Shown one piece after another: positions 2 through 4,356 of a stretch of 64,000 bases of DNA. Where the stretch lies: positions 640,001 to 704,000 of the forward strand of contig CP147778.1 in the NCBI GenBank assembly GCA_037305845.1. The letters run 5' to 3'. Under the pieces are notes generated by a model. It ran no database searches and was not told where the DNA came from. It saw only the letters and a list, made by a program, of their open reading frames with translations. The stretch comes from Candidatus Freyarchaeum deiterrae. GTDB lineage: Archaea > Asgardarchaeota > Jordiarchaeia > Jordiarchaeales > Jordiarchaeaceae. The position numbers were made by a program, and so were the translations under genes. Within the stretch, counting starts at the first letter, position 1. Each line of letters starts with the position of its first letter.

Positions 2-208
2 GATGAATTAAACAGGAAAATTTACAGACTTAAGAGAGAAAACCCCTCAATGGAAGCATTCTTCACTCTGGCAGAAATACTTAGAACAACTAAACTGCAG
101 CCTCCAAAATCAGATTTTGAAGAAAAACCCACAGGAATTAAAAAAAGAATTGGAATAAAAACAGAATTTCAAAGTTATATGAAAACTCTTAGAGAGGAAA
201 AAAAGTAA
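2..208 (+). CDS. 3' end of a paralogue of the 514..1641 protein (runs off window start)
   Basis: Frame 2 reads DELNRKIYRLKRENPSMEAFFTLAEILRTTKL...KTEFQSYMKTLREEKK*, closely matching the C-terminus of 514..1641 (DELNKKIYQLKRANPSMEAFFALAEILRSTKL...KTEYQSLIESLRKKEK). Confidence 0.85.
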   Translation, partial: DELNRKIYRLKRENPSMEAFFTLAEILRTTKLQPPKSDFEEKPTGIKKRIGIKTEFQSYMKTLREEKK

Positions 209-371
209 AGGGACTGAACATACTTTACAATTAGAGTTTTTTAAAGCATAAAATTAAACAGAGCGCGATAAATTATACTCTCCGATTTAAGAGTTTTGGA
301 ATTATCCTAAGCACAACATAAGTAGCTTTGTTAAACAGTATCCCCTGTGCAGTATCTGCCTAACTACAAAA

Positions 372-513
372 GTTTTTAGATTTTCTCAATAAGTTTATAT
401 CAGGGTGTTATAAGAAGAGTTACTATTACTTTTATTAATAATAGGAGTATTCAGAAAACATTTAATACCAATGCTTGTTGCCTTTTATTTAAGGGAAAAG
501 CGAGAGTGATAAT
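372..513 (+). promoter_or_regulatory. Duplicated promoter/leader region (copy at ~1760-1894)
   Basis: Shared blocks caataagtttatatc, gaaaa(c/a)atttaa and taagggaaaag..gtgat.atttgtttgaaaa upstream of both paralogues. Confidence 0.55.
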
Positions 514-1641
514 TTGTTTGAAAAACGCGGTGTTTGCTTTGCTATTTTCGATGAAGAAACCGGTCCAACTAGTGTTTATTTTAAGGGAATCAGCAAAACA
601 ATTGCCGATAAGATCGCTTTGAAGACCATAGTTGGTGCACTTTCTTTGAGCCAGCAAGTGGATGAGGGAGAATCTATAATTCCCATTCAGGAAGAAGAGA
701 AGAACGTTTTTGTCTACTATTTCTCCGTAGCCGACGAGAAAGCGAGAGGGAAAGAGAGAGTCGGAACACTCAATTTCGTTGTTAACAGGGAGGATGGTGA
801 TGTGCTTTACCGTTTTGCTCCGATTCTCTCAGAGCACTCGAAAAAAGCGGTGGAGGACATTAAAAAATACTACGTTTACAGGCAGCCGATTCCTCAAGTC
901 CTAGTGAATAGCTTGGAAGGTATTTTATCAATCGAAGACTTTGAGAGAGCAGTTCTGCCTGATAGTTTTAAAGAGTATCTAATTAGAAGCTATCTTTCAA
1001 GGGATACTACTTTCCATCGTTCAATAGTGGAAAAAACAAGCAGTATTTCTCGGCATGAAGAAAATTTGGAGGAAATAGTGGATATCGTGGGAAGAGACAA
1101 AAACAAAGATATTGTTTGGGTGCTTCTTTTTCGTAATTTTTCTAGAATGAGTGATGAAGAGAAAAGAAGTCTATATTTGTATTTAGATAAGCTTAGAGAG
1201 AATATTTCTTCTCTGGAGGTAATATTTGTTCTTAACGAATTGGGTCTTAGAAGAGGGGGCGCATTCGACGATAAAACAATTGAAGAAATTACTCGAATTT
1301 CCAGAACCAGTGAAGCTGATGGAAAAGATTTTGATTTATACGGAACAGACAATAACGATAATATTGTTTGGGCCCTTTTATCGAAAAACTTTCTAACCAT
1401 GAACGAATCAGAAATGGATGAATTAAACAAAAAAATTTACCAACTTAAGAGAGCGAACCCCTCAATGGAAGCTTTCTTCGCCCTAGCTGAAATACTCAGA
1501 TCAACCAAACTAGAAACTCCACCACCAAAAAAACCGGAATTTGAAGGAAAACCCATAAGACTTAGGAGGATTATGGGAGCAAAAACAGAATATCAAAGTC
1601 TTATAGAATCGCTTAGGAAAAAAGAAAAAGAAAAAAAGTAG
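514..1641 (+). CDS. Folliculin/uDENN(longin)-like N-terminal domain protein with duplicated C-terminal domain
   Basis: FAIFDEETGPTSVY resembles the uDENN/NPR2 opening strand-GP motif; YYFSVADEKARGKERVGTL resembles FLCN/SMCR8 DxxARGxxR; two internal repeats D-x-x-G-x-D-x-N-x-x-IVW-x-LL-x-x-NF. Confidence 0.6.
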   Translation: MFEKRGVCFAIFDEETGPTSVYFKGISKTIADKIALKTIVGALSLSQQVDEGESIIPIQEEEKNVFVYYFSVADEKARGKERVGTLNFVVNREDGDVLYRFAPILSEHSKKAVEDIKKYYVYRQPIPQVLVNSLEGILSIEDFERAVLPDSFKEYLIRSYLSRDTTFHRSIVEKTSSISRHEENLEEIVDIVGRDKNKDIVWVLLFRNFSRMSDEEKRSLYLYLDKLRENISSLEVIFVLNELGLRRGGAFDDKTIEEITRISRTSEADGKDFDLYGTDNNDNIVWALLSKNFLTMNESEMDELNKKIYQLKRANPSMEAFFALAEILRSTKLETPPPKKPEFEGKPIRLRRIMGAKTEYQSLIESLRKKEKEKK

Positions 1642-1894
1642 TTTTTTAGACCCAAAATTAAGCATAGAAGAGCGAATTGGGCCTATTTATAAAGGGCGGG
1701 GATTTATCCTGAGCATTTATCATAATCAGCAATTCTAAATAATATTACTCAAATTATAAAGTTTTAAGATGCTTTCAATAAGTTTATATCTGTGTATGCA
1801 AAAAATAACATAATTACAATGTTTGCAGGATTTCGAAAAATATTTAAGACGATGCTCGTGAGCCCTTAATTAAGGGAAAAGTGGGCGTGATGAT

Positions 1895-2395
1895 TTGTTT
1901 GAAAATCGTGGAATTTGTTTTGCTATTTTCGACGAAACGGCGGGTCCAACAAGTGTTTATTTTAAGGGAATCGATAAGACAATTGCGGATAAAATCGCTT
2001 TAAAAACTATGGTTGGTGCACTTGCTTTGAGTAGGCAAGTGGACGAGGGAGAATCTATAATTCCCATTCAGGAAGAACAGAAGAATGCATTTGTGTACTA
2101 TTTTTCGATAGTCGATGAGAAAGCCAGGGGAGGAGTTAGAATAGGTGTACTTAGTTTCGTTGTGAATAAGGAAGATGGTGACGCATTATACCGTTTGGCT
2201 CCGATTCTCTCAGAGCACTCGAAAAAAGTTGTGGAGGACATTAAAAAATACTATGTTTACAGGCAACCGATTCCCCAGGTTCTAATGGACAGCGTGGATA
2301 GTATTTTGTCAATCGAATTTGAGAAATTATTATTAAAAAAAGATAAAGAATCCAGAATTAAGGGTGCTCTAAAACACGAAGAGGATATTTGGTAG
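1895..2395 (+). CDS. Stand-alone folliculin/uDENN(longin)-like domain protein, paralogue of the 514..1641 N-terminus
   Basis: Highly similar to the first ~140 aa of 514..1641, with DEKARGGVR; upstream DNA also duplicated. Confidence 0.65.
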   Translation: MFENRGICFAIFDETAGPTSVYFKGIDKTIADKIALKTMVGALALSRQVDEGESIIPIQEEQKNAFVYYFSIVDEKARGGVRIGVLSFVVNKEDGDALYRLAPILSEHSKKVVEDIKKYYVYRQPIPQVLMDSVDSILSIEFEKLLLKKDKESRIKGALKHEEDIW

Positions 2396-2657: not shown

Positions 2658-3578
2658 TTGAATTTAAATAAACGCCTCTTATCATATTCGCTTGTTATTC
2701 TTGCTCTCGAAGCTTTAGGATTATTCGGTTCTTTTTTCATTTTGTGGCAGTCCGTATTCTACTTTTATTCGGCAAGTTTAATTTACGAGAATGTTTACGG
2801 AGTTTTCACCACTTTTTATTACATTAGTTACTCTGTTGAACCCTTGCCTACGTTACTGGCTTATTGGTTGTACAGTAGGTCTGCTCTTCCAATGCTATGG
2901 ATCGCTATTCCAATATATGTAATTTTAAAACTGGTTTTATTAGCCTTAAAAAGATTTAATTTAGCCGGCTTATCAATACTTATGCCATTACTCTTCGCTG
3001 GGGAAAGGTTCTTTACCACCCTGAATATTTCTGATATTCAAAAATGGCTGTTCTCGCTTTCAGGGATCTTTATTTATCAGCAACAAGGGATAGGTCCAAT
3101 CGTATTAATGGTAGTACTCTTTCTAGGAGTCTACGGGGTTAGTTTCTTTGAGAACGCCCTCAGGCTTCCAATGATTAAACGAGTTATAAAACTCTTGAAG
3201 GAGAATCCGGAACTTGAGCTTTCCGAGATTGCTAAGGGTAGTGGATATAGTGTAAAGCAGTTATACAATATACTCACCAAAACTATTTACCAGGGAATGA
3301 TTCTCGCAGTTCTAACTGAAAAAGAATTAGTAGCATACGAAAAACCTAAGGCTCAGGAATTGATTGTCGAAGCCTTTAGAAGGGTTCTTCAGAAAAATGA
3401 AAGACTAGACATTAATGATTTACGCTATGTCATGCAGAACTCAAAAATATGGTTTTCTCCAAAAGGAGAAGATGCTCTAGGTATCATCAAAAATGCTCAG
3501 GAAGAAGGAAAGCTCTTGGCACTTATTATTGATAACAAAATAATTATACGACAATCAGAACCAAAATTCTCATACTAA
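2658..3578 (+). CDS. Membrane protein with C-terminal tandem PCI-like winged-helix domains
   Basis: ~4-5 hydrophobic helices, then LELSEIAKGSGYSVKQLYNILTKTIYQGMILAVL and a second similar unit ending EEGKLLALIIDNKIII. Confidence 0.55.
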   Translation: MNLNKRLLSYSLVILALEALGLFGSFFILWQSVFYFYSASLIYENVYGVFTTFYYISYSVEPLPTLLAYWLYSRSALPMLWIAIPIYVILKLVLLALKRFNLAGLSILMPLLFAGERFFTTLNISDIQKWLFSLSGIFIYQQQGIGPIVLMVVLFLGVYGVSFFENALRLPMIKRVIKLLKENPELELSEIAKGSGYSVKQLYNILTKTIYQGMILAVLTEKELVAYEKPKAQELIVEAFRRVLQKNERLDINDLRYVMQNSKIWFSPKGEDALGIIKNAQEEGKLLALIIDNKIIIRQSEPKFSY

Positions 3579-3621: not shown

Positions 3622-4356
3622 TCAAATGTAGTACTGGTCGTTCTCTGGGAAAATTCTGTTTACTGAAGCAATCATTTTTTCAGCTGCTTCTGGTTTACCA
3701 GCGTTCAGGTAGCTCTGGGAGGCCCAAATGTATTTATCTCTTGCTTCATTCACATCACCCATTTCTTCAAAGAGTTCTCCACTTTTGAGATAGAGAGCTG
3801 CCGCTTCTTCATGCCTGTTCATTGCGTCCCCGTATAATATACCCAAGAGCCCGAGTACTATAGCTTGCTGGTATTTATCACCCAGCTCTTCAGATAATTT
3901 TAGCGCTTTTTTGTAGCAGCTTTCAGCTCTTTGATAATCCGCCTGTTGCTTGTATGAGAAACCTGCCCGCCAATAGCTTTCAGTCGCGTTTTTGAATGAT
4001 TTCTCCTTATCATAAATTTTCGCTGAGGTCATATAACTTTCTGCTGCCTTCTCGAACTTTTCCAATATAAAATAATTAAATCCCAAATGGCTGAGATAAA
4101 ACGCAGTGTTTTCATTTTCAAGATTCAGGTTTTGTAGTATGGTTACCGACTTTAGAAGGTATTCTAATGCCTTCGCATTTTTTTGAACAGATTCTGATAA
4201 TAGTCCTGCTTTTGCAAAGGCTGTGCTGCATTTTTCCAATTTATTATCTTCTTCAAGCTTTTTTGCAGAAGCCAGGTAAAGTTCTAAGGCTTCTCCGTAG
4301 TTTCCAGACTTCTCCATTCTCTCAGCTTCAGAAAAGAGTTCATCTGAATCCGTCAA
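3622..4356 (-). CDS. TPR / alpha-SNAP-like helical repeat protein
   Basis: Repeated A-x-x-Y-x-x-(A/S)-(A/G) TPR units (KAAESYMTSAKIY, ATESYWRAGFSY, AAALYLKSGELF). Confidence 0.7.
   Translation of the reverse strand: MTDSDELFSEAERMEKSGNYGEALELYLASAKKLEEDNKLEKCSTAFAKAGLLSESVQKNAKALEYLLKSVTILQNLNLENENTAFYLSHLGFNYFILEKFEKAAESYMTSAKIYDKEKSFKNATESYWRAGFSYKQQADYQRAESCYKKALKLSEELGDKYQQAIVLGLLGILYGDAMNRHEEAAALYLKSGELFEEMGDVNEARDKYIWASQSYLNAGKPEAAEKMIASVNRIFPENDQYYI

What the first reader, a model, noticed from the sequence alone, without database searches (positions are those of the whole stretch)
2..2395. Tandem array of folliculin/SMCR8-like longin proteins retaining the GAP arginine-finger motif
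Seen: at least three tandem paralogues, two with duplicated upstream regions; both complete copies have FAIFDE.(T/A)GP..VY and YYFS(V/I).DEKARG..R. Established: eukaryotic FLCN (HTFFIKDSLARGFQRWY, Arg164) and SMCR8 (DLEARGFVR, Arg147) use this ARG arginine as the catalytic finger against Rag/ARF GTPases, and NPRL2/uDENN longins begin with a strand-F(D/H)-x3-GP motif. Inference: these are archaeal longin-type GAP candidates, one a minimal 166-aa stand-alone domain, diversified by C-terminal domain gain or loss. That would be a prokaryotic small-GTPase regulatory module related to the Rag/TORC1 machinery.
Basis: partly seen in the sequence, partly recalled or inferred. Interest (0 to 1): 0.8.

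Follow-up and report, generated by a model that had tools for sequence, protein, structure and literature searches.

The report
Tandem folliculin-like GTPase off-switch genes
An Asgard archaeon (Freya/Jordarchaeia) carries three neighbouring copies of a gene for the small domain that human folliculin uses to switch off Rag GTPases; this domain class is already published for Asgard archaea, but here a short soluble copy and a likely Rag-like partner make the idea easy to test.

Summary
There are three intact tandem paralogues (368, 375 and 166 aa; the first starts 898 bases before the window), all under purifying selection. All match Pfam Folliculin and keep the GP motif and Arg78; the modelled copy has a longin fold whose closest eukaryotic match is FLCN (Z 13.8). 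The central idea is published: Novak Vanclova et al. 2025 (PMC12290439) report Asgard FLCN/SMCR8-type longins with GP motif and arginine finger. This scan's notes hold 69 similar findings from at least 31 genomes. New here: (1) the long forms end in two degenerate NucS-like repeats found only in this order; (2) the 166-aa form is most likely a derived truncation, not an ancestral minimal domain; (3) in Lokiarchaeia the same longin is fused to a Rag-like GTPase, and that fusion points to one unlinked Rag-like GTPase in this genome. A predicted complex of two longins with that GTPase scored 0.74 against a best control of 0.01, in FLCN/SMCR8-like GAP geometry; it may be recalled from solved complexes. 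No activity has been shown, no GTPase gene lies next to the array, and nothing ties it to TORC1.

The parts
2..208 (+). 3' end of paralogue A (368 aa, longin plus two NucS-like repeats; gene starts 898 bases before the window, G000:C1:639102-640208)
   Evidence: PF11704, E 2.7e-6
369..513 (+). upstream region of paralogue B, duplicated with that of C; TATA-like and Shine-Dalgarno-like stretches
   Evidence: (69% identity, E 2e-8)
514..1641 (+). paralogue B, 375 aa: FLCN/SMCR8-type longin (residues 1-147) plus two NucS-like repeats and a C-terminal helix
562..567 (+). GP motif (Gly17-Pro18) of paralogue B, between strand 1 and strand 2
745..747 (+). Arg78 codon of paralogue B, candidate arginine finger in the loop between strands 4 and 5
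1030..1257 (+). C-terminal repeat 1 (residues 173-248), degenerate PD-(D/E)xK / NucS-like, E-x-K replaced
1282..1512 (+). C-terminal repeat 2 (residues 257-333), 35% identical to repeat 1
   Evidence: (hhalign probability 99.6, E 3e-24)
1758..1894 (+). upstream region of paralogue C, duplicated with that of B
1895..2395 (+). paralogue C, 166 aa stand-alone longin with a short basic tail; derived truncated form
1943..1948 (+). GP motif of paralogue C; Gly17 touches the switch-II Gln of the Rag-like GTPase in the predicted complex
2126..2128 (+). Arg78 codon of paralogue C; touches switch I of the GTPase in the predicted complex

Best explanation
The three genes encode soluble FLCN/SMCR8/NPRL2-type longin proteins that act as GTPase-activating proteins for a Rag-like small GTPase. 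Two longin domains (the same or different paralogues) form a bowl. The GTP-bound G domain sits on it through switch I and II, the GP loop packs against the switch-II glutamine, and Arg78 completes the active site. The most likely substrate is the unlinked Rag-like GTPase-roadblock protein at G000:C1:1258278-1259231 (-). The order's ancestor had one long gene with two catalytically dead NucS-like repeats as a binding or regulatory tail. In one family it duplicated and one lineage lost the tail, giving singlets, doublets and triplets at this locus. Shown: genes, predicted fold, motifs, selection, distribution. Inferred: dimer, partner, catalysis, role of the tail.
For: PF11704 at or above its cut-off, and matched by 45 of 89 family members. 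Model pLDDT 80; structural matches: Lokiarchaeal longin dimer 8YQG Z 16.6, FLCN 6nzd_H Z 13.8 (rmsd 2.4, 135 aligned), Lst4 13.2, C9orf72-SMCR8 12.5, GATOR1 chain B 11.2; other longins and roadblocks 10.2 or less. Arg78 is kept in 36 of 37 close homologues and is invariant across distant families. Profile position 81 maps to SMCR8 147 if ungapped (E only 0.24). Among 145 distant representatives, 31 of 31 fused to a small GTPase keep the Arg, against 58 of 114 unfused (kin are not independent, at least 3 changes are forced). A profile of the fused Rag-like domains picks one genome protein at E 6e-23, the next at 1.6e-7. That protein is Gtr1_RagA family and has an orthologue in all 10 other genomes of the order. 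Predicted complex of 2 longins + G domain + GTP + Mg: ipSAE 0.74, best of 3 controls 0.01 (mark reached by 58 of 80 solved complexes and 2 of 110 mismatched pairs; runs agree in at least 90% of contacts; partner pLDDT at least 86). Gly17 touches Gln60 of DxxGQ, Arg78 touches residues 35-36 next to switch-I Thr37, and both longin copies contribute. This is the geometry described for SMCR8-C9orf72-ARF1 and FLCN-RagC.
Against: No biochemical data exist. Similar complexes are solved (FLCN-RagC, CSW-ARF1, GATOR1-Rag), so the pass may come from memory, and close cousins of a true partner also pass. The genome has about 25 small GTPases, including a second Gtr1_RagA protein, and only one was tried. 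The longin dimer itself was not scored, and the distance from Arg78 to GTP was not reported. No GTPase gene is adjacent. About half of the unfused family members lack the Arg, as does the solved member 8YQG, so family membership alone does not imply catalysis. Other relatives are fused to Rab-like GTPases.
Confidence: 0.58

Rival explanations
1. They are arginine-finger GAPs, but for a different GTPase (one of about a dozen Rab-like proteins, the Arf-like or longin-fused ones, or the second Rag-like protein), or they are promiscuous.
For: Seventeen or more relatives are fused to Rab-like G domains and all keep the Arg. SMCR8 acts on ARFs and weakly on RAB8A. Only one partner was modelled.
Against: The fused profile singles out one Rag-like protein by 16 orders of magnitude. 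GTPase-fused longins with the highest scores to this family's profile are the Rag-like ones. The modelled pair passed.
Confidence: 0.17
2. They are GTPase-binding platforms without catalysis (scaffold, effector, GEF or inhibitor, as for most longin and roadblock proteins); the arginine is structural or only binds.
For: Most longin dimers act as GEFs or scaffolds. Half of the unfused family lacks the Arg. A predicted interface cannot separate GAP from effector binding.
Against: The Arg is retained in every GTPase-fused member and in 36 of 37 close homologues, in a loop whose flanking residues vary. The GP motif is reported to mark GAP longins and to be absent from non-GAP longins.
Confidence: 0.17
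3. The main job of the long forms lies in the NucS-like repeats (binding nucleic acid or another ligand), with the longin as a dimerisation or sensing module unrelated to GTPases.
For: Two-thirds of the long protein is the repeat region, conserved in 9 of 10 other genomes of the order and under purifying selection.
Against: The E-x-K catalytic motif is replaced in both repeats, and the Asp of repeat 2 is lost in the sister family. A tail-less form has been kept under selection in many genomes.
Confidence: 0.08

Closest known systems
Asgard 'Folliculin/SMCR8 longin domain-containing' proteins with GP motif and arginine finger (Novak Vanclova, Jackson, Dacks 2025, PMC12290439, section 2.6)
   Same: Fold, GP motif, arginine finger, and the proposal of GAP activity on Rag or Arf-related GTPases
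   Different: That paper shows a heimdallarchaeial reference and 14 others, and in the passages read names no partner. It does not describe Jordarchaeales arrays, the NucS-like tail or a truncated paralogue.
Human FLCN longin domain (FLCN-FNIP2, RagC/D GAP, Arg164; PDB 6NZD, 8DHB; PMC9473554)
   Same: Longin fold (Z 13.8, 18% identity), PF11704 match, arginine in the same loop, predicted docking mode
   Different: No DENN domain, no obligate FNIP partner identified, no lysosome or TOR context
SMCR8-C9orf72 (ARF GAP, Arg147; PMC8213707) and GATOR1 NPRL2-NPRL3
   Same: Longin-dimer bowl, GP loop, Arg register with SMCR8 147
   Different: Eukaryotic complexes are heterodimers of one catalytic and one non-catalytic subunit; here all three paralogues keep both GP and Arg
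Lokiarchaeial longin-Rag-like GTPase-roadblock fusions (Tran et al. 2024, PMC10933270) and the solved Lokiarchaeal longin dimer 8YQG
   Same: Same longin family (E 6e-17 to 8YQG; fusions at E about 1e-38)
   Different: Here the longin and the GTPase-roadblock are separate, unlinked genes; 8YQG lacks the Arg
NucS/EndoMS catalytic domain (PF01939, PD-(D/E)xK fold)
   Same: Profile similarity of each C-terminal repeat (probability 84-88%, pairwise E 3e-6 to 7e-6), first Asp kept in most
   Different: E-x-K replaced by L-L-S/F; duplicated; fused to a longin; found only in this order

Membership tests
Asgard FLCN/SMCR8-type GP/Arg-finger longins | Longin fold closest to FLCN/SMCR8/NPRL2 | tested here: met
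   Z 13.8 to FLCN, rmsd 2.4, 135 aligned; PF11704 at or above cut-off
Asgard FLCN/SMCR8-type GP/Arg-finger longins | GP motif at the strand 1-2 junction | tested here: met
   Gly17-Pro18 at the start of strand E17-24; Gly17 invariant in 89 sequences
Asgard FLCN/SMCR8-type GP/Arg-finger longins | Arginine at the finger position | tested here: met
   Arg78 in the loop between strands E63-73 and E81-91; maps to SMCR8 147 if ungapped in a weak match. Residue-level superposition on FLCN Arg164 was not printed by the tools.
Longin-domain GAPs (FLCN, SMCR8, NPRL2) | Arg-dependent stimulation of GTP hydrolysis | not testable with these tools
   needs an assay
Longin-domain GAPs (FLCN, SMCR8, NPRL2) | GTPase bound on a longin dimer through switch I and II | tested here: inconclusive
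   prediction passed, 0.74 against best control 0.01 (58 of 80 solved, 2 of 110 mismatched); may reflect memory of solved complexes; dimer not scored
Folliculin proper (FLCN orthologue) | C-terminal DENN domain after the longin | tested here: not met
   The 166-aa copy ends about 20 residues after the longin; in the long copies the region is two internal repeats with NucS-like profile similarity
Folliculin proper (FLCN orthologue) | Heterodimer with a non-catalytic FNIP-type longin | tested here: inconclusive
   Only a weak candidate in the genome: a WD-GP longin fused to TackOD1 at G000:C1:3337404-3338840, E 0.05
TORC1 pathway | TOR kinase and Raptor downstream of Rags | not tested
   Liu et al. 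(bioRxiv 10.1101/2020.10.19.343400) report no TOR catalytic-domain homologue in Asgard archaea
Active PD-(D/E)xK nucleases (NucS) | D ... (D/E)xK catalytic motif | tested here: not met
   NucS consensus IELK aligns with LLS/LLF in the repeats; none of 22 sequences shows E-x-K there
PD-(D/E)xK fold | Restriction-endonuclease-like topology | tested here: inconclusive
   Best Z only 5.5, though most of the top 50 rows are of this fold; Foldseek top hits NucS/EndoMS at E 0.03; NucS_C E 0.011 in 4 of 22; hhalign score 35 against 15 for the best of 40 shuffles

The most novel reading that the evidence does not exclude
The 166-aa protein is a self-sufficient, symmetric homodimeric arginine-finger GAP for the genome's Rag-like GTPase, with paralogue mixing and the NucS-like tail tuning it. 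It would be a living model of the homodimer from which the heterodimeric FLCN-FNIP, NPRL2-NPRL3 and SMCR8-C9orf72 GAPs could have arisen, and the first prokaryotic Rag-GAP pair to be demonstrated.
Probability: 0.35. Interest if true: 0.75.

Novelty: new variant of a known kind. Interest (0 to 1): 0.45.

Why it matters
Whether Asgard longins with the folliculin arginine really switch off Rag- or Arf-like GTPases is an open question posed in 2025 (PMC12290439), and no assay turned up in the papers searched. Most candidates noted elsewhere in this scan are membrane proteins, large receptors or fusions. This locus offers a small soluble 166-aa protein, two natural variants with an extra tail, and a named candidate substrate conserved across the order, so the test is two small proteins and one point mutant. 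The tandem array itself is ordinary lineage-level gene duplication.

Tried and rejected
Single-sequence search of solved structures found nothing useful. Trimmed profiles did not give a printable alignment to FLCN or SMCR8, and a search for longer homologues returned no eukaryotic protein, so the Arg164 register rests on fold and loop position. ESM Atlas gave no usable hit for the C-terminal part by features and only TM below 0.5 by structure; no DENN structure appeared among its matches, which does not exclude it. No paper on 8YQG was found. Assembly artefact rejected. Pseudogene status rejected. 'Ancestral minimal domain' rejected: the sister family has only long forms and short forms nest among long ones (rooted by the sister family, and short forms are not one clean clade). 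A gene cluster with a GTPase rejected: neighbours are endonuclease IV, galactokinase/GalT, a membrane protein, thiolase or ABC ATPase genes. The family tree of 147 distant longins was only a quick tree and poorly resolved, so no origin or donor is claimed. The host genome could not be tied to a named published genome.

Full report
OBSERVATION. The window is bases 640001-704000 of a single-contig 3.58-Mb genome. Close homologues are labelled Ca. Jordarchaeum and Freyarchaeota, so the host is an Asgard archaeon of the Freya/Jordarchaeia. Three paralogues lie head to tail: A (368 aa, starting 898 bases before the window and ending at 208), B (514-1641, 375 aa) and C (1895-2395, 166 aa). They are the only PF11704 Folliculin matches in the genome and score at or above Pfam's cut-off as proteins. 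The upstream regions of B and C are 69% identical over about 150 bases and match nothing else in the genome. All copies are under purifying selection (dN/dS 0.14-0.29). An independent contig has the same triplet and another a doublet. Other genomes of the genus have one long gene at this locus and often a short gene elsewhere.

THE LONGIN DOMAIN. The AlphaFold model of B (pLDDT 80) has a five-stranded longin domain at residues 1-147. Its best structural matches are the Lokiarchaeal longin dimer 8YQG (Z 16.6), FLCN (Z 13.8, rmsd 2.4 over 135 residues), Lst4 (13.2), C9orf72-SMCR8 (12.5) and GATOR1 chains (11.2, 10.6). Adaptin, TRAPP and SNARE longins score 10.2 or less. Gly17-Pro18 opens strand 2 and Arg78 lies in the loop between strands 4 and 5. 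Arg78 is invariant in 16 sequences spanning several Asgard families and kept in 36 of 37 close homologues. In a weak profile match to SMCR8 (E 0.24), the arginine's profile position falls on residue 147 if there is no gap before it. A residue-level superposition on FLCN Arg164 was not available from the tools.

THE FAMILY. A profile search found 248 clusters at 50% identity, and matches in 68 of 151 Asgard genomes searched, patchy by family. Architectures vary widely. Of 145 alignable representatives, 31 are fused to a small GTPase, either Rag/Arf-like (Lokiarchaeia) or Rab-like. All 31 keep the arginine, against 58 of 114 unfused ones. These rows are related, so the contrast is a lead and not a statistic; the tree forces at least three changes of the fusion label.

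THE C-TERMINAL PART. The long forms end in two repeats of about 77 residues (hhalign probability 99.6, E 3e-24) and a helix. This region was found in 9 of the 10 other genomes of the order and in none of 190 other Asgard genomes searched. Structural matches are weak but mostly of the restriction-endonuclease-like fold (Z up to 5.5; NucS/EndoMS top in Foldseek at E 0.03). A profile comparison with NucS catalytic domains gives probability 84-88% and score 35, against 15 for the best of 40 column shuffles. The first Asp is mostly kept but E-x-K is replaced, so these are most likely dead nuclease folds reused for binding. This assignment is moderately supported; the function is inference.

HISTORY. 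In a tree of 45 longin domains from the order, the sister family has only long forms and short forms nest among the long ones of this family. The 166-aa form is therefore most likely a derived loss of the tail. Short forms do not form one clean clade; repeated loss or gene conversion between neighbours could explain that, and neither was tested.

PARTNER. No GTPase gene flanks the array. The genome encodes about 25 small GTPases. A profile built from the Rag-like domains that are fused to this longin in Lokiarchaeia picks one stand-alone protein, G000:C1:1258278-1259231 (-), at E 6e-23, with the next at 1.6e-7. It is a Gtr1_RagA-family G domain with a roadblock-like C-terminal part (the roadblock reading is by architecture). 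Its best solved relatives are Rag/Gtr-type GTPases, and it has an orthologue at 66-90% identity in all 10 other genomes of the order. A predicted complex of two longins, this G domain, GTP and Mg scored ipSAE 0.74 against a best control of 0.01. The mark was reached by 58 of 80 solved complexes and 2 of 110 mismatched pairs; these counts hold only roughly for this job. Runs agreed in at least 90% of contacts and the partner's pLDDT was at least 86. The GP loop (12-19) touches switch II including Gln60 of DxxGQ, Arg78-Gly79 touch switch I residues 35-36 beside Thr37, and helix 1 of both copies contributes. That matches the published geometry of SMCR8-C9orf72 on ARF1 and FLCN-FNIP2 on RagC. Because those complexes are solved, the pass may show likeness and not binding. 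Specificity among the genome's GTPases and the longin dimer itself were not scored.

MECHANISM. Most likely (0.58) these are soluble arginine-finger GAPs that work as longin dimers on the Rag-like GTPase. Rivals are a different or broader substrate (0.17), non-catalytic binding (0.17) and a role centred on the NucS-like repeats (0.08).

PRIOR KNOWLEDGE. Novak Vanclova et al. 2025 already report Asgard FLCN/SMCR8-type longins with GP motif and arginine finger and propose GAP activity on Rag or ArfR proteins. Liu et al. describe FLCN-like and NPRL2-like Asgard longins and the absence of a TOR kinase. Tran et al. describe longin-GTPase-roadblock fusions. This scan's notes list 69 similar findings in at least 31 genomes; they are unchecked AI notes and are not counted as evidence. 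My partner search and complex prediction were done before I read them.

VERDICT. Real, and a new variant of a published kind. The additions are the order-specific tail, the derived stand-alone form and a named candidate substrate with a passing model. Interest 0.45; it would rise to about 0.75 if the short protein proved to be a homodimeric Rag GAP.

Noticed in passing
window 9324-10274 (+): 316-aa protein with a Rab/Roc-like G domain (PF08477 E 1e-7, PF00071 E 7e-6) whose P-loop and DxxGQ motifs are degenerate, followed by a Cys-rich tail: a candidate pseudo-GTPase 7 kb from the array.
   Followed up: partly
G000:C1:3337404-3338840 (+), locus L021: 478-aa protein with an N-terminal longin-like domain carrying a WD..GP motif like C9orf72 and no ARG loop, then TackOD1 and a restriction-endonuclease-like end by eye. 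It lies in a cluster with KaiC-like ATPases, a Rab-like GTPase, a second Rag-like GTPase (3329513-3330631) and three tandem longin-GTPase fusions. Possible non-catalytic partner.
   Followed up: partly
L051, L052, L053 (three Lokiarchaeia-type genomes): Conserved cluster: Rag-like GTPase-roadblock gene, zinc-ribbon roadblock gene, a restriction-endonuclease-like gene, then the longin(Arg)-Rag-roadblock fusion.
   Followed up: partly
L007, L008, L009 (sister family): The single long gene lies directly after a GalT-like gene (and a galactokinase-like gene in L008 and L009) on the same strand; in the genus of the window a galactokinase gene also lies nearby. A possible link to sugar status, untested.
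   Followed up: no
window 2658-3578 (+) and 3622-4356 (-): Conserved downstream neighbours: a multi-pass membrane protein with a weak PCI/winged-helix tail (E 0.004) and a SNAP/TPR protein.
   Followed up: no
P0037, P0038: A long-form variant whose last helix is replaced by a four-cysteine zinc ribbon.
   Followed up: no
P0024: The only close homologue with Met in place of Arg78, a natural candidate inactive variant.
   Followed up: no
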